In this document: piece after piece, positions 1 to 9,986 of the stretch | Layout: each line of letters opens with the position of its first letter | Position numbering within the stretch: the first letter of the stretch is position 1 | Assembly (NCBI RefSeq): GCF_017348835.2 | Contig: NZ_CP071375.1 | Length of the DNA: 64,000 bases | DNA from: Escherichia coli | GTDB lineage: Bacteria > Pseudomonadota > Gammaproteobacteria > Enterobacterales > Enterobacteriaceae | Strand: one strand, 5' to 3' | Position numbers and translations under genes: made by a program | Notes under the pieces: generated by a model | Database searches by the model: none | Told to the model about the DNA's origin: nothing | The model's input: the letters and a program-made list of their open reading frames with translations, nothing else

Positions 1-1749
1 TACGCTTAACGGCTCCCACGGTTTGAGAGTCATCCATGCGGTCATTGTCTGCGTTGGCAGATCGGTTATCTTGCCGATGTCTTTGCGTTTGGCGTCAGCG
101 TGGATCAGGGCGTAGCTCAATCCTACATCCAGTATATTGCTGATTTTCCCCTTAATACCGGCATCCAGACCGCTGTAATCCACCGTGCCGCTGTTCTGAT
201 TTTGAATGGTATCGGCATCAATATTGTGCGAGAGGATGGCATCACTCACCCGGTTATAGTAAACGCTGACCTCAAATCCCCAGTCGCGCGTGAAGGCACC
301 ATTCCAGGTTAAATCCACCCCGCGAGCGCGTTCCGGCTTGAGCTGCGGGTTAACAATCGCTATCTGGTTATACGCAGGTTTGGATGTGGTATAGCGTTCT
401 TTCAGCGTCGGAAAGCGTGTGCGGTCATAGTACGAAAGCGCCAGAGTGTCTTCATTGGCAAAGTGGTATTTCCCCATCACCTGCCAGTTAAAAGCTGACT
501 GATTGTTGTCGTCATAATGGGTGATGCTGCCATCTTTCTCATGTTTTTTCGCTTCTACGCTATCGCGCCAGTCATAGCTGATTCCAGCCACGACATCGAC
601 ATTATCGGCAGCAGCCCATTGATATTCACTGGCGAGCGACCAGGTACGATCTTCATAGCGATCGTAAGCGGCGTGCGGCGCACCTTTTTCCCGGTGTACG
701 TCATCTTTCCAGTTAACGGCAAACGACAGCAGATCGTTTTCACGCACATCGGCTGCCAGTTGTAATCCGGCACCGTCGCTGTAATCGGAATAATGGCTGT
801 AGCTGCCTTTTTTATTTTTCAAATCAGCCAGCGAGTTGTACATCATCAGCGTATTTTCAAAGGTGTCGCGATACAGCCGACTTTTCAGGGTAAAACGATC
901 GTTTAGTTGGGTCGTTCCCTGATAATAAAAACTTTCTTTGTCATACTCTGGCCACTGCCAGTAGCGTGATTTTTGACCACTATTTCCGCTGTATGGCGGG
1001 TTATCTTTTTCACCATCCTGCTTAATGTAAGTCAGTGTGTATTCATCGTTTTCACGTGGTGTAAATCCGAGCTTCACAATGCCGCGTTTATCATCAGCCG
1101 ATGAATTAATCATCTTGCCGTGGTTGCCTGCAATATCATTATTTACACCATGCGGCAGGCCGAGAAAATCCTGCTTTAGCTGGCTACCGCTGACTTGCAA
1201 ATACCCCAGATCGCTGCTGGCGGCAAATGAAGCATGCATATCGTAGGCATTGTCCTGGCTACGGCTCCATCCCTGGCGATATCCCAGACTTGCTTCCAGA
1301 GGTTTTGTTGGCTTCTGGGTGGTGATATTAATGGCTCCGCCCATCTGATTAGGCCCCTGAAGCAGCGACGAATACCCTTTGGAAACTTCGACTGCCCCCA
1401 GATTGTTGGTCAGAATCCGCGCCAGATCGAGGTTGCCGTCATAGGGAACATAAATGGGCACACCGTCGAAATAGACCGGCACCTGCCGACTATCAAAGCC
1501 ACGAACTTTTACCTGTTCTTCGTTGCGGCTGCCTGACTTTTGCAGCACCACGCCGGGGACGACACTTAATGCCTGAGCGACATTCTGTTTATCCAGGGCC
1601 TTCATGGTGGGTTGATCGAGAACGGTGGTCGTCGTCGATGATACCGGACTGGACCATACGGTCAGCGAGTCGCTCTCCTGAGCCGCTACGGCCTGCTGGG
1701 TAAAGGCAAGTGATAATGCTGTGCAGAGATAATGTTTTTTGAGTCTCAT
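1..1749 (-). CDS. TonB-dependent outer-membrane receptor (3' end beyond window start)
   Basis: Manual minus-strand translation from ATG at 1747-1749 reads MRLKKHYLCTALSLAFTQQAVAAQESDSLTVWSS... with no stop for 583 codons to position 1. Signal peptide, TonB-box-like DSLTVWS and plug-domain-like motifs (VRGFDSRQVPVYFDGVPI) are present. Absent from ORF track because there is no stop in the window. Confidence 0.75.
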   Translation of the reverse strand, partial: MRLKKHYLCTALSLAFTQQAVAAQESDSLTVWSSPVSSTTTTVLDQPTMKALDKQNVAQALSVVPGVVLQKSGSRNEEQVKVRGFDSRQVPVYFDGVPIYVPYDGNLDLARILTNNLGAVEVSKGYSSLLQGPNQMGGAINITTQKPTKPLEASLGYRQGWSRSQDNAYDMHASFAASSDLGYLQVSGSQLKQDFLGLPHGVNNDIAGNHGKMINSSADDKRGIVKLGFTPRENDEYTLTYIKQDGEKDNPPYSGNSGQKSRYWQWPEYDKESFYYQGTTQLNDRFTLKSRLYRDTFENTLMMYNSLADLKNKKGSYSHYSDYSDGAGLQLAADVRENDLLSFAVNWKDDVHREKGAPHAAYDRYEDRTWSLASEYQWAAADNVDVVAGISYDWRDSVEAKKHEKDGSITHYDDNNQSAFNWQVMGKYHFANEDTLALSYYDRTRFPTLKERYTTSKPAYNQIAIVNPQLKPERARGVDLTWNGAFTRDWGFEVSVYYNRVSDAILSHNIDADTIQNQNSGTVDYSGLDAGIKGKISNILDVGLSYALIHADAKRKDIGKITDLPTQTMTAWMTLKPWEPLSV

Positions 1750-1774
1750 AGAATAAATTCCGTTTAACAAAGAA

Positions 1775-2629
1775 TTAAATAGAGGCTGCGGGTTGCAGAC
1801 TGACTTTAATGTCAGCCGGTGCCGCGTAATAAGGCGCGGAGGTAATAAAGAGGCGAATGCCGCAGTCGAGGTAATTTTTGAGTGTCGTCAGATTAATTCC
1901 GCCGGTCAGAGCCAGCGTGCAGTGGGGAGCCAGCGACGGCGCTATTTGCGCAATTTCAGTTGCCTGTTGCGGACTAAATTTGTCGAGCTGAAGTACGTCT
2001 GGTTGCGCGCGTAACGCGGCGATTGCCTCTTTCGGCGTGTCGGCTTCAACAACAATTTTCTTCTCGGGTGCGTGGCGACGTAACTGATTGATTGCGCCTG
2101 ACCAGTCCTGATTGTCATGAAGAAAATGGCGGTGGTTGGCAAACAATAATATGGTTTCCGCACATCCGGCACGATGAATCAGTCCTCCGGCAGCCAGAAT
2201 TGCCTGCGAGGCCAGTAAGCGGGTGCCCGGAATTGCTTTTCGGGTGCAGGCGATATTGCCATCAGGATAACGTTCACGAAGTAACGCCAGCATTTGAGCG
2301 AGATAATCAGAAACACCGCAACTCCACTCCAGCACATTCTGGACTGCCTTCCATCCCTGATGAAGTGCTGCGGCATTACCCTGCGCACGGATTAGCCGTT
2401 GACCCGCGTTCGCTTGTGAACCGTCGCTGACCGCGTCCTCAATAGTTAATCCCAGCGTAGTTAACATCTTACACGCGATAGAAACGCCGCTGACGCAGCC
2501 GCCCTGACGGAGAAAAAACTCTATATAGCCATGCTGGTGTCCAATATTTAATGCTCTCGTGGTCAGGTCACCGCCCTGGATATCTTCCAGAAGTAACGCA
2601 TCGATTTGTGCCTGAGAAAGGAAAATCAT
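1775..2629 (-). CDS. ModD-like protein (quinolinate/nicotinate-nucleotide phosphoribosyltransferase paralog)
   Basis: 284 aa ORF; N-terminus MIFLSQAQIDALLLEDIQGGDLTTRAL resembles NadC/ModD family; start overlaps upstream gene stop (ATGA). Confidence 0.65.
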   Translation of the reverse strand: MIFLSQAQIDALLLEDIQGGDLTTRALNIGHQHGYIEFFLRQGGCVSGVSIACKMLTTLGLTIEDAVSDGSQANAGQRLIRAQGNAAALHQGWKAVQNVLEWSCGVSDYLAQMLALLRERYPDGNIACTRKAIPGTRLLASQAILAAGGLIHRAGCAETILLFANHRHFLHDNQDWSGAINQLRRHAPEKKIVVEADTPKEAIAALRAQPDVLQLDKFSPQQATEIAQIAPSLAPHCTLALTGGINLTTLKNYLDCGIRLFITSAPYYAAPADIKVSLQPAASI

Positions 2630-3438
2630 CGCAGTGCCTCCTGCGGTACGCTATCCCACCAGATGAGCGCCCAGTCGCGGCTGGCAGGGGCGAGGGCACG
2701 AGCATCTTGTTGTTGATACCAGCGATATAACCGCTCACGCTCATCGTCGTTAAGCGCGCCAAGACTCCAGCTGACGTTCTGCTCAAAACGTTCCCAGGTG
2801 CTGTTATCCTGTTGGCAATTTTGTCCACGGATAAAATCAACGTGGGCATAAATTCCCATCTGATACAGGACGTTGAGCGCAAAGATATAGTTGGGTAATT
2901 CGATCACTTCCCGACCAGCCGCCCGCTGAATGGCTGGAGAGACGAACGAGGTGCTGACCAGATGAGTCGTATAGACGCGAAGCCGTGCCTGATTATTCAG
3001 TTTGCTCATTGCCTGGCGCATATCAGCCACCAGAGTGGAGCGGGAAGCCACGGCAATATCGCAGCGTGGCAGGTCACTCCAGTCCTCTTCCCAGGCGCGC
3101 TGGATCCAGTGGACATTGTCTGCCTTCAGCGCGGCGGCGCGACGGGCGGCAACGTTCAGCATCCCCTGACTGTAATCAACGCCATAAATCGTCGTGAGTT
3201 TGTCAGCCAGCGCCAGCGATACGGTACCCGGTCCGCAGCCCATATCGAATAAGGTCTGAGCGCCTTGCAGGTCAATTTTAGAGATCAGTTGTTGCAGGTA
3301 GCTGTCCGTTGGCGAGGCGCAATTTTCCGCCATTTTCTCCGCCCGTTGATCCCAGTGATCGGGCGTTTTTTCTGTGCGGTGAGCCAGTTTGAGTTGCTGC
3401 AGATAAAGGTCTGCAAAATCAATATCATCAATGAGCAT
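2626..3438 (-). CDS. class I SAM-dependent methyltransferase
   Basis: 270 aa ORF with motif I LFDMGCGPGTVSLALA and downstream acidic motif YGVDYS. Confidence 0.7.
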   Translation of the reverse strand: MLIDDIDFADLYLQQLKLAHRTEKTPDHWDQRAEKMAENCASPTDSYLQQLISKIDLQGAQTLFDMGCGPGTVSLALADKLTTIYGVDYSQGMLNVAARRAAALKADNVHWIQRAWEEDWSDLPRCDIAVASRSTLVADMRQAMSKLNNQARLRVYTTHLVSTSFVSPAIQRAAGREVIELPNYIFALNVLYQMGIYAHVDFIRGQNCQQDNSTWERFEQNVSWSLGALNDDERERLYRWYQQQDARALAPASRDWALIWWDSVPQEALR

Positions 3439-3447
3439 GATTGTTCC

Positions 3448-4206
3448 TTAGCGGCTAATTGCAGAGAGGTGATGATGAATTTGGTCGGCAGAAACCCGAT
3501 ACAGGGCCGCCAGTTTGTTCGTTGTTAACTGTTCGGTCGGTAAGCCTTGTGTTACTCGTCCATCTGGCTCTACCTGGATAATGCTGTCGGCAATGGCGTT
3601 GGCATGGAGCGGATGGTGAGTCGACATTAACATTGTCATGCCGTTATTTTTGAGCTGCGCCAGCGTGTCCAGTAGTTGGATCTGATGACCGAAATCGAGG
3701 CTGGAGTCAGGCTCATCCAGTAACAACAAGCGCGGTTGCTGGACGAGTGCACGGGCGATTAAAGCCAGCTGACGTTCACCGCCGCTAAGCGTATTCCAGC
3801 GTCGTGCCGCCAGATGCAAAATACCCAGCTTTTCCAGTTGCTCCGTGGCTTTCAGGCGTTCTTGCTTACCGGGAACGGAAAAAGCGCCTATGGTGGGGGC
3901 CAGGCCCATCAACACCATATCCAGCAAACTAAAAGCAAAAATACCGTCGTGCGCCTGCGGCACCCAGGCAATAGCCTGCGCGCGCTGGCGATGGCTGAGT
4001 GTCTGCACAGGGAGGCTATCCAGTAAGACCTCGCCTTTTAATAACGGTATAACGCCAAGAATGGAGCGCATGAGTGTGGTTTTGCCGCAACCATTGGCTC
4101 CTAACAGACAACAAATTGTTCCTTGCGACAGGGTGAAGGACACGTCGCGTAGCACCGGATGGCGGGAGTAACCCAGAGACGCATGACGGACGGCAAGCAA
4201 AGTCAC
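3448..4206 (-). CDS. ABC transporter ATP-binding protein (metal-chelate type importer)
   Basis: Walker A GANGCGKTT, ABC signature LSGGERQ, Walker B LLLDEP. ORF track start at 4344 gives an N-terminal extension overlapping the permease; GTG at 4204-4206 overlaps permease stop (GTGA) and is the more likely start. Confidence 0.85.
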   Translation of the reverse strand: MTLLAVRHASLGYSRHPVLRDVSFTLSQGTICCLLGANGCGKTTLMRSILGVIPLLKGEVLLDSLPVQTLSHRQRAQAIAWVPQAHDGIFAFSLLDMVLMGLAPTIGAFSVPGKQERLKATEQLEKLGILHLAARRWNTLSGGERQLALIARALVQQPRLLLLDEPDSSLDFGHQIQLLDTLAQLKNNGMTMLMSTHHPLHANAIADSIIQVEPDGRVTQGLPTEQLTTNKLAALYRVSADQIHHHLSAISR

Positions 4207-5183
4207 TGGCGACCTCCGCGTAACAACAAAAGCAGGAAAAACGGTGCGCCAACAAAAGCGGTCAGAATGCCAAGTGGGATTTCTGTTGTTCCAATGCTGC
4301 GTGCCAGCGTATCGGTAAGCAGGAGCAGAATCGCGCCAGTACACATTGCCATGGGCAACAGCTGCTGATGGTTATGACCGGTCAACAAGCGGGCAATGTG
4401 CGGAACGACCAGGCCGACCCAACCAATTATGCCCGCTATTGCTACCGAACTGGCGGTGATTAGTGTGGCGCAGACAATCAATCCAAAGCGCAGACGCGTC
4501 ACGTTCAGTCCCAGCGAACGGGCTTCGTCGTCGGAAAGCGTGAGTAAATTCATGCGCCAGCGGAGAAAAAACAGGGGCAAGGAGCCTATGAGAATGATCG
4601 GTGCAGCATAACAGAGATCGCGTAAGGTCACGGTAGACAGTCCCCCCAGCAACCAGAAGGTAATTGACGGTAACTGGGTGTAAGGATCGGCCAGCGTTTT
4701 AATTAGCGATATCCCCGCTCCGCACAACGTTCCTAACGCAATGCCTACCAGCACCAGGGTTAAGATCGGATCGTGGCGGGTCACCCGACGCGTAATCAAC
4801 CAGACGCCCGCGACCACCATCAGCCCGCCGCAAAATGCGTACAGCTGGATGTAAACAATGGATAATCCCCACAGAATTGCCGTGCAGGCACCAAGTCCGG
4901 CACCGGCGGAGACGCCTAAAATATCCGGTGAAACTAAGGGATTACGCAATATTCCCTGATAGGTGGTTCCGGCTCCTGCCAGCGCCGCGCCCAGTAACAG
5001 CGCAGCAAGAATACGCGGCACGCGGATTTGCCAGAAGACAATTTGTTCCTGCACAGGAACATTTTCTTGACGAAGAATTAGCGCCAGCAGTTGCTGCATA
5101 TCGAGATGATAAGCCCCACTTACGGCGGCAAAAGTGATACTGATAGCTGCCAGCAGCAAAATACATCCGTTTGCGATTCTCAT
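4203..5183 (-). CDS. FecCD-family ABC permease
   Basis: 326 aa highly hydrophobic ORF with multi-TM pattern typical of FecD/BtuC permeases; start overlaps upstream gene stop. Confidence 0.8.
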   Translation of the reverse strand: MRIANGCILLLAAISITFAAVSGAYHLDMQQLLALILRQENVPVQEQIVFWQIRVPRILAALLLGAALAGAGTTYQGILRNPLVSPDILGVSAGAGLGACTAILWGLSIVYIQLYAFCGGLMVVAGVWLITRRVTRHDPILTLVLVGIALGTLCGAGISLIKTLADPYTQLPSITFWLLGGLSTVTLRDLCYAAPIILIGSLPLFFLRWRMNLLTLSDDEARSLGLNVTRLRFGLIVCATLITASSVAIAGIIGWVGLVVPHIARLLTGHNHQQLLPMAMCTGAILLLLTDTLARSIGTTEIPLGILTAFVGAPFFLLLLLRGGRQ

Positions 5184-6205
5184 TAGCTCGCCACCAATTT
5201 TTGATAGTCGGCGTCACTGAGTGAACAATGCCAGAACAGTTGGGCGTAATGCTGCATGTCACTTTTAAACTGGCGATTGATGGCGGGATCCAGCCAGGCG
5301 TGAAGTCTGCGTAATCCCAGAAGACGGTTGATTCCCGGCGGGGCATCCAGCCAGCCAAAGGGCAAGCCACTTAAAAATAAGATGCGTTGTTCCGCAACGG
5401 CTTTCACGCCCTGCCAGAGAGGATCACGACGAATAAAATCTGCAGTAACGGCCTCCTGAACCAGAATAATATCCGGCTGCCAGCGCAGGAGATTTTCCAT
5501 GGAAACCTGTGTCAGGCCGTGGCGATCGGCTATTTGCGCGACGTTGTGCAAACCTAATAATTCCGCCGCCTCGGTATGCAACGAACCCTGTAAGCCCGTT
5601 TCCAGCCCTTGAGGACCGCGCGCAGCATAAAAGCGGAGGTTAGCGGCGGGTGAGGTGGCGAATGCCTGAGCTTCACCAACGAAGCGGCTGGCGAGATTGG
5701 CTTGTTCTGCGGCGCGATGCTCTTCGCCTAACGTTTTGCCAAGCGTTGTTAACTGTTCTGCTGATTGCTCCAGTTTCCCGTTAAGCAATAACCAGGGTAT
5801 TTGTGTCTGTTCGCTAACCTGCCGTGCCTGGGAGATCCAGGTTTCATCCGTATTGCCGCAATCAACGACCAAATCGGGATGTAACGCCATAAGCCCTTCC
5901 AGCGAGAGTGTGCTGGCGCGCCCGGCGAGTCGTCCCAGCCTGGGTAACTGGCGAATGTGCTCTGACAATGGAATTAATGCCTGACGGGCAAAATCAAAAG
6001 AGGAAAAACCGACCATTTTTTCTGGCGCGACAGCCAGCAATAGCAAATCGGCGGGCGCACCTGCGCTGACGATGCGTGTAATGTTTTGGGCTTCGGGAAG
6101 CGTCAGTGAGGCCCAGAAATTGACTGATTGTGCAAAGGACGGCAGATGATGCAGGAACAATGTTGACGCAAGAATCTGTGTAAACCTCCGTCTGGTTAGT
6201 GACAT
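5183..6205 (-). CDS. periplasmic substrate-binding protein (FecB/BtuF-like), possible Tat-type signal
   Basis: 340 aa ORF; N-terminus MSLTRRRFTQILASTLFLHHLPSFAQ has RR motif followed by hydrophobic stretch and AxA-like cleavage site; first gene of minus-strand operon. Confidence 0.75.
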   Translation of the reverse strand: MSLTRRRFTQILASTLFLHHLPSFAQSVNFWASLTLPEAQNITRIVSAGAPADLLLLAVAPEKMVGFSSFDFARQALIPLSEHIRQLPRLGRLAGRASTLSLEGLMALHPDLVVDCGNTDETWISQARQVSEQTQIPWLLLNGKLEQSAEQLTTLGKTLGEEHRAAEQANLASRFVGEAQAFATSPAANLRFYAARGPQGLETGLQGSLHTEAAELLGLHNVAQIADRHGLTQVSMENLLRWQPDIILVQEAVTADFIRRDPLWQGVKAVAEQRILFLSGLPFGWLDAPPGINRLLGLRRLHAWLDPAINRQFKSDMQHYAQLFWHCSLSDADYQKLVAS

Positions 6206-6480
6206 AAGTTATATCCTGATAATTAAAACCGCTATATATTTACATATATATATCGAAAAAAATCATGTTTGATGTCAAAATTTGTCTAAAGAGACAGAAT
6301 GATTTGCTTGTTGCTTAAATAACACTTTGTTCCACAAGAAAATTGTCAGGGAGAATGGCGGAGTGGCGAAAAATATAAATAGAGGTGTAATGATTAACAA
6401 ATTGATAAAATAAAATTAAAATCTTCTCTGATAAAAGAAAATAAAGGCATAGACCGTAGAATGGGGGGCATTTCGTGGCG

Positions 6481-6523
6481 AAAAAAGAGCAATGCCAATT
6501 TTATGCACATAATGGCATTGCTC
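6481..6523 (-). terminator. rho-independent terminator downstream of treA
   Basis: Inverted repeat gagcaatgcc/ggcattgctc (6487-6496, 6514-6523) followed on minus strand by T-run (6481-6486). Confidence 0.5.
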
Positions 6524-6550
6524 GATATACAGCCTCGATATACAGCAAAG

Positions 6551-8248
6551 TTAAGGCGTAGGTTCCGCCTCTTTTTGTTTTACCGGCTGTGTTGTTGATT
6601 CACTGAGTGGACGCGTCGCCGGAACATTGTCACACGGTTGCTCTTTCGGGCAGATCAAATCCAGCATTTTCAGCGTCACGCCATTGGTCCAGCCAAAGCC
6701 ATCCTGTAATGGATATTCGCCACCGCCGCCCCCCGTTCCGGTGGTGCTGACATCATATTTTTCCACCAGCTTTTTCTCCCGGTCATAGGTGTGCTGAACA
6801 TTGGTCAGGAAGTGCCAGCTAATGTCCATCGCCACCTCTTTTTGCCCGTAGTTTTGTAATCCTTCTGTCGCGACCCACTGTAACGGTGCCCAGCCATTTG
6901 GCGCATCCCATTGTTGCCCACTTTTCACCGACGTGGTGTTCAGGCCGCCGGGTTGCAGCAGATGTGTTTTCGTCGCCGTCGCCATTTTGTTGGCGCGATC
7001 TTTCGCTGCCGCATTGACGTACAGCGGGAACAGGGCGGCAGCGGTTAACTGATTGCGCACTTTATGACTTTTCAGGTCGTAATCGGCATACCAGCCTTGT
7101 TGATCGTTCCACAGGTATTTTTCGATCCCTTTTTGACGGGCATTTGCCAGCGTTTCGTACTGGTTTGCCATCGCGTTATCTCCGGCAACTTTGCTGGCGC
7201 GGGCGAGAATTTTTTCCATTTTAAACATCAGGCTGTTCAGATCGACCGGTACGATGCTGGTGGTGCGTATGGTATTTAACTGCTGCGGATTGTCCATCCA
7301 GCGCGAGCTGAAATCCCAGCCAGACGCAGCGGCAGAGCGCAAGTCGCGGTAAATTTCAGTGGCAGGTCGATTCGGATTGCTTTTGGCGGTGGCAATATCT
7401 TCCACCCATGACTCTGGTCGTGGCGTATCGCGATCGTCCCAGTAGCGGTTGAGAAGGGTACCATCCTGAAGTTTTACAACGCGTTTTTCCTGTTGTCCGG
7501 CTTGCAGGTTTTCAACACCGTCCATCCAGTAAGCATATTCTTTTTGCATTTGCGGCAGGTATTGCTTCAATGCAGCATCGCCTTCATGCTGCGCCAGTAA
7601 CTCTACCATCATGGCAAAGAAGGGCGGCTGCGAGCGGCTTAAATAGTAACTGCGGTTGCCGTTGGGAATATGACCGTAAGTGTCTATTTCATGAGCAAAA
7701 TTGGCCACCATATCCGCGACCTTATCCCAGTGACCGCTTTCGGCAAGTCCTAACATGGTGAAGTAACTGTCCCAGTAATATACCTCGCGAAAACGTCCGC
7801 CTGGCACGACATAAGGTTCCGGCAGCGGTAACAGAGAATCCCATTTTTCGGTGTTTTCGGTAGAACGCGTTAATACCGGCCAAAGTCCGTCAATATGTTC
7901 GCGCAGTGACTGTCCCTCTGGCGGAACATATTTCTCTCCCTCTTTCGGCAGGGTGAAATTGACGTTAACGAAATGGCGCAGATCAAATCCGCTCTGGTTT
8001 TGCTGCATCCGATAATCAGCAAGGATCATCAGCGGATCGCTGTTCGGCACGGCATCGGCAAAGGTTTTTTGGTCCGGAAAAAGCTTGGCGTTTTGCACAT
8101 CATTAAACAGCGGCCCTAATAAAATATCAGGCGGCTGTGGCGTTACCGGTGTTTCTTCTGCCTGCACCGATAGCGCAGCGAAACACAAAAAGATGCAGGC
8201 TGGAATTAACGCCATTTTTTGCGGGCGAGAAGGTGCGGGGGATTTCAT
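6551..8248 (-). CDS. treA: periplasmic trehalase
   Basis: Translation [30 protein letters not shown]... matches TreA throughout; ORF track starts one Met earlier (8251). Confidence 0.95.
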
Positions 8249-8567
8249 CAATCATTCTCCTTAGGCGAAACCGAATAAAACGGTATTCAAGTATCAGAAA
8301 ACCTTAGTTCAGGATCGCACTAGCTGCATGATCGAAATCTCATTCTGCGAACTGTCAGGCATTTTAGAAAAGGGAATTAAAGGGATAAATAACGGCGAAA
8401 TAGAGTGATCAAATAACGTCTGTTTATTAGCCAGCCAGCGGCGTTTGGTTCGCGATTAGCGAAGAAAAATCATCATAAATTGGTGAAAAATATAACAGGT
8501 AGTTAAAAAACATTAGTGCTGAGTAAATTGCCGGATGACATCAGAACGATGCCATCCGAACGGTGGC

Positions 8568-9986
8568 TTAACCCTGACGGTTGAAACGTTGCGTTTTAAC
8601 GTCCAGCGTTAGCTTTTCTTCTGGTTGTATCGCATACAGTTTCTCACCCTGCTGGCAAATCCAGCCAATCCCCAGTTCACGGGCGATCAGGGCGCTGTGG
8701 GATACCGGACTTCCGGCGCTAAGGCAGATACCTTTTACAACCGCCGGATCCAGTTGCAGTACTGTGGAAGGATAAATGTTCTCCGCCAGTAGAATAGTTG
8801 GCGAGTTAAACTGCGGGAGTTCTTCTTTCGTTTGGGTCAGGTGGACCAGGGCGCGATGCAGAAGATCGTCCACATCAATATAGCGAGCTTGTAGATATTC
8901 ATCATCCAGTTGCTGGTATTGCTGGCTAAGTTCTTTAAGAACTTGCTGCCAGGCATATTCTGCCGTGCAATGTTCGTGCTGAAGGAGTTCGCTTGCCGCC
9001 GCCAGCAGTTCCGGATCATCTAACAGTGTATGGTGACCAGAAAAGATTGCGGCAATATCGTCAAGCCCGCTGGCTTCTGCTTTCGCTGTTAACGTCATCA
9101 GATCTAATAACGTGAAGTCAATGGCCTGGCGTAATCGTTCTTGTTCTTCTTCCACGGTCAGGGTTGATTTGGCCTGTACCGTACATAAAACCGGTTGATA
9201 ATAAAAGGCTTTACCCGAAACAGGCGGAACGGGACGCAGAGTAGGTGGAGCAACTTCCTCCGTTTCACCAAAGTTATCTTCAGCCAGCTGACGGAAAGCG
9301 ATCAGTGCCTCTTCAGCTTCTGGCCCTTTCGCAATCAGGCGCAGCGTATCGTTATAGCGAACTTGTAATAACGCAATCTGGTTAATACTCTCCGGTGTGA
9401 CGCATTTGCCGTTTTTCTCCAACAACATATCGGCATTAAATGTCGATAAGGTATAAACCAGCCGGGAGGCTGGACGTACATGCAGGCCGTTACGGTTCTT
9501 TATGACCACCGCCAGAGAACGGGCTTCTTCATCGTACGGAGGACATGTGTCAGAGATTTCAGTGTCGGAGGACGGTAAACCCAGTTGTTCACGTTTGGCT
9601 TCCAGCGCATGCATGGCGTCAAAGATAACTTTGTCGATATCCGCCCCCGAGGCCGCGCTGACCGTTGCTGCCAGTGTACCTTCGACCAACGGCGCAGCAC
9701 ACAAACGTACTTTTGCGGCGATCTCGGGAGCCAGCAATTCCAGCGCAGTTTCAGCACTCAATAATGCGCTACCCATATCCATCATGACCAGCACATGGTC
9801 GGCATCAGCAACAGATTCGATGGCCTCCATCACTTTGACGGCATCGGTACCAATGGGATTTTGTGGATCGTCAATTCCCGCGGCAATGGCGATTTTACAA
9901 CTATCACTCATTAACATCTGACGGGCTAATTCACCGACACCTTCTCCCAGTCGGCTGCTATGTGAAACTATGACCAGGTTTACCAT
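8568..9986 (-). CDS. dhaM: dihydroxyacetone kinase phosphotransferase subunit (PTS EI/HPr/EIIA-like)
   Basis: Translation MVNLVIVSHSSRLGEGVGELARQ... matches DhaM; ORF track start at 9992 adds 2 aa. Confidence 0.93.
   Translation of the reverse strand: MVNLVIVSHSSRLGEGVGELARQMLMSDSCKIAIAAGIDDPQNPIGTDAVKVMEAIESVADADHVLVMMDMGSALLSAETALELLAPEIAAKVRLCAAPLVEGTLAATVSAASGADIDKVIFDAMHALEAKREQLGLPSSDTEISDTCPPYDEEARSLAVVIKNRNGLHVRPASRLVYTLSTFNADMLLEKNGKCVTPESINQIALLQVRYNDTLRLIAKGPEAEEALIAFRQLAEDNFGETEEVAPPTLRPVPPVSGKAFYYQPVLCTVQAKSTLTVEEEQERLRQAIDFTLLDLMTLTAKAEASGLDDIAAIFSGHHTLLDDPELLAAASELLQHEHCTAEYAWQQVLKELSQQYQQLDDEYLQARYIDVDDLLHRALVHLTQTKEELPQFNSPTILLAENIYPSTVLQLDPAVVKGICLSAGSPVSHSALIARELGIGWICQQGEKLYAIQPEEKLTLDVKTQRFNRQG

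What the first reader, a model, noticed from the sequence alone, without database searches (positions are those of the whole stretch)
1..6205. Accessory TonB-dependent import operon with embedded ModD-like and methyltransferase genes, abutting treA
Six co-directional minus-strand genes with 4-bp or 1-bp start/stop overlaps (SBP-permease, permease-ATPase GTGA, MTase-ModD ATGA) form one operon: periplasmic binding protein, FecCD permease, ABC ATPase, SAM methyltransferase, ModD-like phosphoribosyltransferase paralog, TonB-dependent receptor. From my recollection of the K-12 map this position is occupied by different small genes, so this appears to be strain-variable content. Pairing an outer-membrane/ABC uptake route with two cytoplasmic modifying enzymes suggests import followed by chemical processing of a small molecule (metallophore or pyridine-type compound), not a plain siderophore system. 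I do not know of a characterised function for this gene combination.
Basis: partly seen in the sequence, partly recalled or inferred. Interest (0 to 1): 0.75.

Follow-up and report, generated by a model that had tools for sequence, protein, structure and literature searches.

The report
Molybdenum-regulated TonB-dependent uptake operon
This strain-variable six-gene E. coli operon, annotated as an iron transporter, carries a conserved binding site for the molybdenum sensor ModE and most resembles the Haemophilus MolBC-A molybdate importer, so it is probably a molybdenum-starvation uptake route whose two enzymes (ModD and a methyltransferase) have no known function.

Summary
Six co-directional minus-strand genes (binding protein, FecCD permease, ATPase, SAM methyltransferase, ModD, TonB-dependent receptor) have the stated overlaps and the predicted Pfam families. 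The receptor gene runs off the window start.

The operon is in 2150 of 5426 complete E. coli genomes. K-12 has ycgY at this site but keeps about 24 nt of the receptor gene's 3' end, so K-12 lost the operon.

The main new result is regulatory. A ModE operator (ATCGnTATATA-N6-TATATAnCGAT) lies 30-50 bp upstream of the first gene. It scores at least 16/20 in 41 of 46 orthologous operons across Enterobacterales, and 22 have a second box before the receptor gene. No Fur box or riboswitch was found.

The permease's best solved relative is MolB (HI1471), and the binding protein's nearest characterised fold is MolA, the H. influenzae molybdate/tungstate importer that also sits next to modD. Elsewhere ModD follows modABC or Fe-only nitrogenase genes, so it probably handles intracellular molybdenum rather than an imported ligand.

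Best reading: a ModE-repressed, TonB-powered Mo/W acquisition system, which is a new variant of a known kind. The substrate and the enzyme chemistry remain unknown. I found no paper on this operon.

The parts
1..1749 (-). TonB-dependent outer-membrane receptor gene. It is truncated by the window start; the full gene encodes 656 aa and its last 74 codons lie upstream of position 1.
   Evidence: PGAP CDS L001:7779-9749. Pfam Plug and TonB_dep_Rec barrel. C-terminal ...GVEYTF and a TonB-box-like DSLTVWS. No NCBIfam equivalog cut-off is reached: BtuB, haem and siderophore receptor models are all far below cut-off.
1775..2629 (-). ModD, a paralogue of quinolinate phosphoribosyltransferase (284 aa)
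   Evidence: TIGR01334 at 503 bits, cut-off 179. The NadC model scores 136 bits, below its cut-off of 198. In the alignment to M. tuberculosis QAPRTase (PDB 1qpn), R139/K140, H161/R162, E201 and D222 are kept, while R105 becomes K94 and K172 becomes F163. These positions are invariant in 15 ModD orthologues.
2626..3438 (-). Class I SAM-dependent methyltransferase (270 aa). Its stop overlaps the ModD start (ATGA).
   Evidence: Pfam Methyltransf_25/31/12/11. SAM motif LDMGCGPG is invariant. The AlphaFold model has pLDDT 87.7. Foldseek finds only generic small-molecule methyltransferases at TM about 0.5. The gene lies directly upstream of ModD in 53 of 79 ModD loci.
3448..4206 (-). ABC transporter ATPase (252 aa). 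Its GTG start overlaps the permease stop (GTGA).
   Evidence: NCBIfam ABC ATPase families. The best single-domain PDB match is HI1470 MolC at 124 bits, against FhuC at 118.
4203..5183 (-). FecCD/BtuC-type (type II) ABC permease (326 aa)
   Evidence: The best PDB match is HI1471 MolB (2nq2) at 222 bits, E 1e-64, against FhuB 173, HmuU 163 and BtuC 142.
5183..6205 (-). Periplasmic substrate-binding protein (340 aa) with a twin-arginine-like signal (TRRRF)
   Evidence: Pfam Peripla_BP_2. The AlphaFold model has pLDDT 86.6. Foldseek ranks 4PAG (uncharacterised) first and then 3PSA, H. influenzae MolA, at TM 0.67-0.70. By sequence, MolA matches at E 5e-8 over residues 206-287 only. The RRxF motif is conserved in orthologues.
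6228..6257 (.). ModE operator, the palindrome CGATATATA-N8-TATATAGCG. In this strain it carries one extra TA; all other E. coli examined have the canonical N6 spacing.
   Evidence: Sequence. The consensus ATCGNTATATA-N6-TATATANCGAT is taken from PMC545781. Four other E. coli strains have the N6 form and score 17-18/20. Boxes of at least 16/20 occur in 41 of 46 orthologous operons. The K-12 modA operator scores 16/20.
6273..6278 (-). TTGACA, a candidate -35 hexamer. The ModE box lies where the -10 element would be.
   Evidence: Read and conserved in the five E. coli strains aligned. No canonical -10 was called by the promoter scan, so the promoter assignment is an inference.
6487..6523 (-). treA terminator hairpin, which marks the upstream boundary of the operon's regulatory region
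   Evidence: GAGCAATGCC...GGCATTGCTC followed by a T run.

Best explanation
The operon is a member of the ModE regulon. When intracellular molybdate is plentiful, ModE-molybdate binds the palindrome over the promoter and shuts the operon off. When molybdenum is scarce the operon is expressed.

Its transport half then works in three steps:
1. The TonB-dependent receptor captures a molybdenum (or tungsten) species at the outer membrane. I think free or loosely complexed molybdate is most likely.
2. A MolA-like periplasmic binding protein, exported with a Tat-type signal, receives it.
3. A MolBC-like type II ABC importer carries it into the cytoplasm.

The translationally coupled methyltransferase-ModD pair is a separate ModE-controlled cytoplasmic module. 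It acts on intracellular molybdenum handling through a PRPP-dependent (ModD) and a SAM-dependent step, not on an imported organic ligand.

Shown here: gene content, homology, the operator sequence and its conservation and position, and the ancestral status of the locus. Inferred: repression by ModE, the identity of the substrate, and the chemistry of ModD and the methyltransferase.
For: 1. Operator.
- A 28-bp match to the E. coli ModE consensus lies 30-50 bp upstream of the first gene.
- 41 of 46 orthologous operons score at least 16/20, and many score 18-20/20. The K-12 modA operator itself scores 16/20.
- As a control, the same pattern with a 7-bp spacer gives 0 hits of at least 17/20 in 1.38 Mb, against 69 with the 6-bp spacer.
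- In 22 genomes where ModD and the receptor gene are separated by 98 bp or more, a second box precedes the receptor gene.

2. No competing signal. Fur-box matches are 13/19 or less in 45 of 46 loci, and there is no Rfam hit.

3. Homology.
- The permease is closest to MolB HI1471 (222 bits).
- The binding protein's nearest characterised fold is MolA.
- MolBC-A transports molybdate, and molB transcription is repressed by molybdate (PMC4031551).
- MolBC-A lies beside modD, HI1473 (PMC3928620).

4. ModD context points to molybdenum.
- modA-modB-modC-modD operons occur in 5 loci.
- ModD lies next to Fe-only nitrogenase anfHDK, Mop and a WtpA-like gene in 5 loci.
- G. sulfurreducens has modDABC with a ModE site.
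- The Z. mobilis nif cluster holds modD, modE and TonB-dependent transporters.
- A MOSC/YiiM-like Moco-enzyme gene follows the receptor gene in 10 loci.
Against: - No experiment was done here, and no paper on this operon was found.
- MolA is only a distant relative of the binding protein: 20% identity, and the sequence match covers only residues 206-287. I could not check its oxyanion-binding residues.
- Molybdate is small enough to cross porins, so the need for a TonB-dependent receptor is unexplained unless the substrate is a larger complex or is extremely scarce.
- H. influenzae MolBC-A is a low-affinity system (Kd about 100 uM), which is odd for a starvation-induced route.
- In the window strain the operator has N8 spacing, so ModE control may be weakened in this strain.
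- ModE can also activate transcription, and the promoter was not mapped.
Confidence: 0.6

Rival explanations
1. Molybdophore piracy with ligand processing. The receptor, binding protein and ABC importer bring in molybdate bound to an organic chelator made by other organisms or the host diet (a catecholate or an N-heterocyclic carboxylate). ModD (phosphoribosylation of a ring nitrogen) and the methyltransferase then modify the ligand to release Mo or to detoxify and recycle the ligand. This is essentially the first reader's idea, made specific to molybdenum.
For: - TonB-dependent receptors and type II ABC importers normally carry chelates or large cofactors (family knowledge; NCBIfam neighbours).
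- ModD keeps the cationic quinolinate-binding residues and the PRPP/Mg residues of QAPRTase, with two changes. This suggests an altered anionic N-heterocycle substrate.
- The low affinity of MolA for free molybdate could mean that free molybdate is not the true ligand.
- No chelator-biosynthesis genes flank the operon in any of the 46 loci, which fits use of a foreign compound.
Against: - ModD is also found directly after modABC, which imports free molybdate.
- ModD is found in Fe-only nitrogenase clusters, as a methyltransferase-ModD pair without any transporter, and as a solitary gene.
- Its substrate therefore cannot in general be an imported ligand.
- The methyltransferase has no specific structural relative that would suggest catechol or carboxyl methylation.
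Confidence: 0.22
2. Salvage of a molybdenum-sparing or Mo-cofactor-related organic nutrient. Under Mo starvation the system imports a pterin or Moco-type compound, or a metabolite whose synthesis needs a molybdoenzyme, and ModD and the methyltransferase convert it.
For: - ModE control is consistent with any Mo-starvation response.
- The transporter classes fit large cofactors such as B12 or haem.
- A Moco-dependent MOSC gene is adjacent in 10 loci.
Against: - No pterin or Moco biosynthesis genes are linked.
- The closest characterised transporter carries the oxyanion itself.
- The ModD-modABC linkage points to molybdate.
Confidence: 0.08
3. An ordinary iron-chelate, haem or cobalamin uptake system, as the database names imply ('iron ABC transporter', 'TonB-dependent siderophore receptor'). 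On this reading the ModD annotation and the TATATA palindrome are incidental.
For: - PGAP product names.
- Weak NCBIfam similarity to siderophore, haem and B12 receptor and permease families.
Against: - Every one of those NCBIfam models scores far below its curated cut-off.
- No Fur box occurs in 45 of 46 promoters, and there is no cobalamin riboswitch.
- The palindrome is conserved across genera at the same position and appears again before the receptor gene in 22 genomes, which is not incidental.
Confidence: 0.05

Closest known systems
Haemophilus influenzae MolBC-A (HI1470-HI1472) molybdate/tungstate type II ABC importer, with adjacent modD (HI1473)
   Same: - The permease is the best solved relative (HI1471, 222 bits).
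- The ATPase's top single-domain PDB match is HI1470.
- The binding protein has the same Peripla_BP_2 fold, and MolA is its nearest characterised structure.
- modD is a neighbour.
- molB expression falls when molybdate is added, which matches the ModE box predicted here.
   Different: - The E. coli-type operon adds a TonB-dependent receptor and a SAM methyltransferase that is translationally coupled to ModD.
- The binding protein is only about 20% identical to MolA.
- The regulator of the H. influenzae operon was described as unknown, whereas here a canonical ModE operator is present.
- Binding of molybdate by the E. coli protein is untested.
ModABC(D) high-affinity molybdate transporter and the ModE regulon (E. 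coli modABC; modABCD/modDABC in Rhodobacter, from my own knowledge, and Geobacter)
   Same: - The same predicted repressor and operator: the modA operator scores 16/20 on the consensus, and this operon scores 17-18/20 in other E. coli.
- ModD is shared, and modABC-modD operons occur in 5 of the fetched loci.
   Different: - ModABC is a type I importer with a ModA-type binding protein and no outer-membrane component.
- The transporter proteins are not homologous to those here.
TonB-dependent receptor plus BtuCDF/FhuBCD/HmuTUV-type uptake systems for cobalamin, siderophores and haem
   Same: - The same three-compartment architecture: a Plug and barrel receptor, a cluster-A binding protein and a type II ABC importer.
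   Different: - No Fur box and no B12 riboswitch.
- No equivalog cut-off is reached.
- Two cytoplasmic enzymes are embedded in the operon.
- Regulation is by the molybdate sensor.
Quinolinate phosphoribosyltransferase (NadC)
   Same: - ModD has the QRPTase_N/C fold.
- It keeps R139/K140, H161/R162, E201 and D222 in M. tuberculosis numbering.
   Different: - It scores below the NadC equivalog cut-off (136 against 198 bits).
- R105 is replaced by Lys, and K172 by an invariant Phe.
- Its genomic context is molybdenum, not NAD synthesis.

Membership tests
ModE regulon (molybdate-responsive) | Operator matching ATCGNTATATA-N6-TATATANCGAT at the promoter | tested here: met
   Other E. coli strains score 17-18/20 with N6 spacing. 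41 of 46 orthologous operons score at least 16/20, centred about 30-50 bp upstream of the start codon, and 22 have a second box before the receptor gene. The spacer-7 control gives 0 hits of at least 17/20 in 1.38 Mb. The window strain itself has an N8 variant.
ModE regulon (molybdate-responsive) | ModE-molybdate binds the site and changes transcription | not testable with these tools
   This needs EMSA or footprinting and reporter fusions.
MolBC-A type II molybdate/tungstate ABC importer | Permease homologous to MolB (HI1471) | tested here: met
   2nq2_A is the best PDB match at 222 bits, E 1e-64, ahead of FhuB, HmuU and BtuC.
MolBC-A type II molybdate/tungstate ABC importer | ATPase homologous to MolC (HI1470) | tested here: inconclusive
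   HI1470 scores 124 bits and FhuC 118 bits. ABC ATPases are too conserved for this to discriminate.
MolBC-A type II molybdate/tungstate ABC importer | Cognate cluster-A binding protein related to MolA, with an oxyanion site | tested here: inconclusive
   The fold matches: 3psa is rank 3, the second distinct protein, at TM 0.67-0.70 and 20% identity. The sequence match at E 5e-8 covers only residues 206-287. The ligand residues of MolA could not be checked because the paper is not held.
MolBC-A type II molybdate/tungstate ABC importer | Transports molybdate or tungstate | not testable with these tools
   This needs uptake assays or ITC.
ModD (TIGR01334) | Score above the curated family cut-off | tested here: met
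   503 bits against a cut-off of 178.85.
NadC quinolinate phosphoribosyltransferase | Equivalog cut-off reached and full set of quinolinate-binding residues present | tested here: not met
   TIGR00078 scores 135.9 bits, below its cut-off of 198.4. K172 is replaced by Phe and R105 by Lys.
Fur-regulated siderophore or haem uptake | Fur box at the promoter, and a receptor or binding protein reaching a siderophore or haem equivalog cut-off | tested here: not met
   The best Fur-box match is 13/19 or less in 45 of 46 loci. All NCBIfam siderophore and haem models are far below cut-off.
BtuB/BtuCDF cobalamin uptake | Cobalamin riboswitch leader, and the BtuB equivalog score | tested here: not met
   No Rfam match at E up to 1 in positions 1-9000. 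BtuB models score 71-79 bits against cut-offs of 600-836.
TonB-dependent receptor | Plug domain, 22-strand barrel domain and a C-terminal aromatic residue | tested here: met
   Pfam Plug (E 7e-21) and TonB_dep_Rec barrel (E 4e-33). The protein ends in ...EYTF and has a TonB-box-like DSLTVWS.

The most novel reading that the evidence does not exclude
The receptor is the first dedicated TonB-dependent outer-membrane transporter for molybdenum in Enterobacterales. It would take up a molybdate complex or scarce molybdate under ModE control. The conserved methyltransferase-ModD pair would carry out a previously unknown PRPP- and SAM-dependent step of cellular molybdenum handling, which would finally give ModD a function.
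Probability: 0.3. Interest if true: 0.85.

Novelty: new variant of a known kind. Interest (0 to 1): 0.62.

Why it matters
Molybdenum enzymes (nitrate, DMSO and TMAO reductases, formate dehydrogenases) underpin anaerobic respiration by E. coli in the inflamed gut and urinary tract.

In the literature I searched, the only dedicated E. coli molybdate importer is ModABC, backed up by the low-affinity sulfate system CysUWA and an unidentified non-specific importer. [quoted passage not shown]

This operon would add a second route that is ModE-controlled and TonB-powered. It is present in about 40% of complete E. coli genomes, including O157:H7, ST131 and ST95 strains, and is absent from K-12, which may explain why it has not been studied.

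The finding also gives concrete experiments for ModD, a family that NCBIfam still lists only as a hypothetical equivalog and whose function, to my knowledge, has never been established. Finally, it corrects a systematic 'iron transporter' annotation.

Tried and rejected
- **Rfam scan.** A scan of positions 1-9000 at E up to 1 found nothing.
- **Promoter and terminator scan.** It gave no more hits than shuffled sequence and did not call the operon's promoter.
- **Fur box.** A weak Fur-like match near 6400 (12/19 by eye) was dropped after the 46-locus scan showed no conserved Fur box.
- **Literature.**
  - Searches by O157 locus tags returned only unrelated papers.
  - Searches combining ModD, TonB, ModE, molybdate, E. 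coli and molybdophore found no paper on this operon.
  - Studholme & Pau 2003 and Tirado-Lee 2011 are not held. I therefore took the ModE consensus from Rodionov et al. 2004, and could not check MolA's ligand residues.
- **ModD structure.** There is no solved ModD structure, only QPRTases.
- **Methyltransferase fold search.** It gave only generic class I small-molecule methyltransferases at TM about 0.5, with no substrate clue.
- **Solitary ModD neighbours.** In Neisseriaceae, Snodgrassella, Ferrimonas and Photobacterium the neighbours are RecG, GyrA, DsbD and a TehA-like transporter, which are uninformative.
- **Insertion hypothesis.** I considered that the operon is an inserted island. I rejected this because G+C is about 50-56% through the genes, like the flanking treA/dha region (about 45-55%), no mobility genes are present, K-12 keeps a remnant of the receptor gene, and synteny with treA holds in other genera.

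Full report
**1. The observation**

The window is E. coli, 100% identical over positions 1-6600 to strain PE164. Six minus-strand genes fill 1-6205:
- binding protein (SBP) 5183-6205
- FecCD permease 4203-5183
- ABC ATPase 3448-4206
- SAM methyltransferase 2626-3438
- ModD 1775-2629
- a TonB-dependent receptor that starts at 1749 and runs off the window. Its last 74 codons lie before position 1; the full length is 656 aa in L001.

The junctions are TAATG, GTGA and ATGA overlaps, followed by gaps of 9 and 25 nt.

- ModD: TIGR01334 at 503 bits (cut-off 179) and QRPTase_N/C
- methyltransferase: Methyltransf_25/31/12/11
- SBP: Peripla_BP_2
- receptor: Plug and TonB_dep_Rec
- permease and ATPase: FecCD/BtuC-type and ABC families.

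**2. Distribution and history**

The operon is in 2150 of 5426 complete E. coli genomes. These include O157:H7, ST131 JJ1886 and an ST95 strain, always between ymgE and treA.

K-12 has ymgE-ycgY-treA at this site. A blastn comparison shows that K-12 homology continues 24 nt into the 3' end of the receptor gene and resumes at the treA stop. In K-12, 622 bp containing ycgY replace 6747 bp.

The same six genes in the same order occur in 46 species-level genomes across Enterobacterales. In E. albertii, Citrobacter, Raoultella and Enterobacter they also sit next to treA.

The operon is therefore ancestral at this locus and was lost in K-12-like lineages. It is not an island inserted in this strain. 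Base composition is unremarkable.

**3. Regulation: the main new finding**

The 345-bp region between treA and the SBP gene contains the treA terminator, a perfect TTGACA, and then the palindrome CGATATATA-N8-TATATAGCG at 6255-6230.

The E. coli ModE consensus is ATCGNTATATA-N6-TATATANCGAT (Rodionov et al. 2004, PMC545781). The K-12 modA operator, read directly from L002, scores 16/20 on it.

Four other E. coli strains carry the N6 form of the site and score 17-18/20.

I scanned 80 genome loci fetched with a ModD alignment:
- 41 of 46 six-gene operons have a box of at least 16/20, usually centred 30-50 bp upstream of the SBP start.
- 22 have a second box immediately upstream of the receptor gene. 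These are the genomes in which the ModD-receptor gap is 98 bp or more (Proteus, Providencia, Morganella, Pectobacterium, Serratia H1w).
- As a control, the same half-sites with a 7-bp spacer give no hit of at least 17/20 in 1.38 Mb, against 69 for the 6-bp spacer.
- The consensus of the recovered sites is nTCGnTATATA-N6-TATATAnCGAT.

A Fur-box scan of the same promoters gives 13/19 or less in 45 of 46 loci. Rfam finds no riboswitch.

I conclude with high confidence that the operon belongs to the ModE regulon. Because the box lies over the likely -10 region, it is most likely repressed by ModE-molybdate in the same way as modABC. Binding and repression are inferred, not shown.

**4. What the transporter resembles**

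| Component | Evidence |
|---|---|
| Permease | Best solved relative is HI1471 MolB (222 bits), against FhuB 173, HmuU 163 and BtuC 142 |
| ATPase | Top single-domain match is HI1470 MolC (124 bits) |
| SBP model | pLDDT 86.6. Most similar to an uncharacterised Sulfurospirillum protein (4PAG), then to H. influenzae MolA (3PSA, TM 0.67-0.70) |
| SBP sequence | MolA matches at E 5e-8 over only 80 residues |

MolBC-A is a type II ABC importer. Its binding protein binds molybdate and tungstate, it contributes to molybdate uptake in vivo, and molB transcription falls when molybdate is added (PMC4031551). Its genes lie in a cluster modA-molCBA-modD (HI1469-HI1473; PMC3928620).

The closest characterised system is therefore a molybdate importer that also has ModD as a neighbour.

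The receptor reaches no curated cut-off for any known substrate class.

**5. What the enzymes suggest**

*ModD.* Aligned to M. tuberculosis QAPRTase, ModD keeps R139/K140, H161/R162, E201, D222 and the GG loop. It has Lys for R105 and an invariant Phe for K172. A PRPP-dependent reaction on an anionic substrate is plausible, but ModD is not NadC: the NadC model scores below its cut-off.

*Methyltransferase.* It is a distinct, well-conserved class I family with no informative structural neighbour. It lies directly upstream of ModD in 53 of 79 ModD loci, more often than any transporter gene does.

*ModD outside this operon.*
- In Edwardsiella and Leminorella the methyltransferase-ModD pair stands alone, and in Edwardsiella it has its own ModE box.
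- ModD directly follows modA-modB-modC in Yersinia, Cedecea, Pasteurella, Photobacterium and Gilliamella.
- ModD lies beside Fe-only nitrogenase genes (AnfD at 1078 bits, AnfK), Mop and a WtpA-like gene in Sodalis, Acerihabitans and related genomes.
- Published contexts agree: modDABC with a ModE site in Geobacter, and modD, modE and TonB-dependent transporters in the Zymomonas nif cluster.

ModABC imports free molybdate, so ModD's substrate cannot in general be an imported organic ligand. It favours a role for methyltransferase-ModD in intracellular molybdenum handling during Mo starvation.

**6. Explanation and rivals**

*Best explanation (0.6).* This is a ModE-repressed, TonB-powered acquisition route for molybdenum or tungsten, built on a MolBC-A-like importer, with methyltransferase-ModD as a co-regulated cytoplasmic module.

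The main unexplained point is why a porin-permeable oxyanion would need a TonB-dependent receptor. That point keeps the molybdophore rival alive.

*Rivals.*
- Molybdophore piracy with ligand processing: 0.22.
- Salvage of a Moco-related or Mo-sparing nutrient: 0.08.
- An ordinary iron, haem or B12 system: 0.05. This is contradicted by the absence of Fur boxes and riboswitches and by the conserved ModE boxes.

**7. Novelty**

I found no paper on this operon. The reviews and papers I read name ModABC, MolBC-A, sulfate transporters and the P. aeruginosa T6SS ModA/IcmP route for molybdate.

The parts belong to known families, and the ABC core has a characterised relative. I therefore class this as a new variant of a known kind: a MolBC-A-type system extended by an outer-membrane receptor and a methyltransferase-ModD module under a canonical ModE operator.

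Curated regulon databases that I could not consult (for example RegPrecise) may already list the site. That is the main risk to the novelty claim.

**8. Strain-specific detail**

The window strain's operator carries one extra TA, which changes the half-site spacing from 6 to 8 bp. Among 1827 E. coli records that match this 80-bp stretch, only this strain has it. It is either a private microsatellite slip that may loosen ModE control or an assembly error.

Noticed in passing
window 6230-6255 (minus strand): The ModE operator has one extra TA repeat unit, giving N8 half-site spacing instead of N6. Of 1827 E. coli records matching this 80-bp stretch, only this strain (PE164) has it. It may derepress the operon in this strain, or it may be a sequencing or assembly error.
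   Followed up: partly
window 6521-6546 (minus strand), just after the treA stop codon: There is a 13-bp tandem duplication, GCTGTATATCGAG twice. The four other E. coli strains aligned have a single copy.
   Followed up: no
L083:4126-4938 (E. coli O157:H7 strain Z1816): The methyltransferase gene of the operon is annotated as a pseudogene with an internal stop, while the other five genes are intact. I did not check whether this is fixed in the O157:H7 lineage.
   Followed up: no
L087:2033-2056 (K-12, between ymgE and ycgY): K-12 retains about 24 nt of the 3' end of the receptor gene (encoding ...GVEYTF plus the stop codon). This is a deletion or replacement scar showing that ycgY-containing DNA replaced the operon.
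   Followed up: yes
window 6191-6205 (SBP N-terminus) and orthologues in L004-L066: The binding protein's signal peptide has a conserved twin-arginine-like motif (TRRRF, SRRTF, HRRQF, NRRTF). This suggests Tat export of a folded protein.
   Followed up: no
L014, L016, L017, L018, L020, L021, L026, L027, L043, L044, downstream of the receptor gene: A MOSC-domain, YiiM-like gene (6-hydroxyaminopurine reductase family, a Moco-dependent enzyme) follows the receptor gene in 10 genomes.
   Followed up: partly
L067, L068, L071, L072, L074 (Sodalis, Acerihabitans and related genomes), around position 9000: ModD lies beside Fe-only nitrogenase genes (anfH, anfD, anfK), an AnfA/NifA-like activator, a di-Mop molbindin and a WtpA-like binding protein, with ModE boxes nearby. 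Fe-only nitrogenase in Enterobacterales relatives is itself notable.
   Followed up: partly
window 8568-9986 (minus strand), dhaM: RefSeq marks dhaM of this strain as a pseudogene with an internal stop. My translation of this interval shows only the terminal stop, 473 codons.
   Followed up: partly
L003 (contig JAIJJM010000374.1, labelled as a Collinsella sp. MAG): A 3.2-kb contig assigned to an actinobacterial MAG carries ATPase, methyltransferase and ModD genes 97-99% identical to E. coli. This is probably a binning error.
   Followed up: no
L001:1005-4818 (outside the window, upstream of ldcA): In this strain cvrA is annotated as a truncated pseudogene, next to hypothetical genes that include a 478-aa ORF. 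This suggests another local rearrangement.
   Followed up: no
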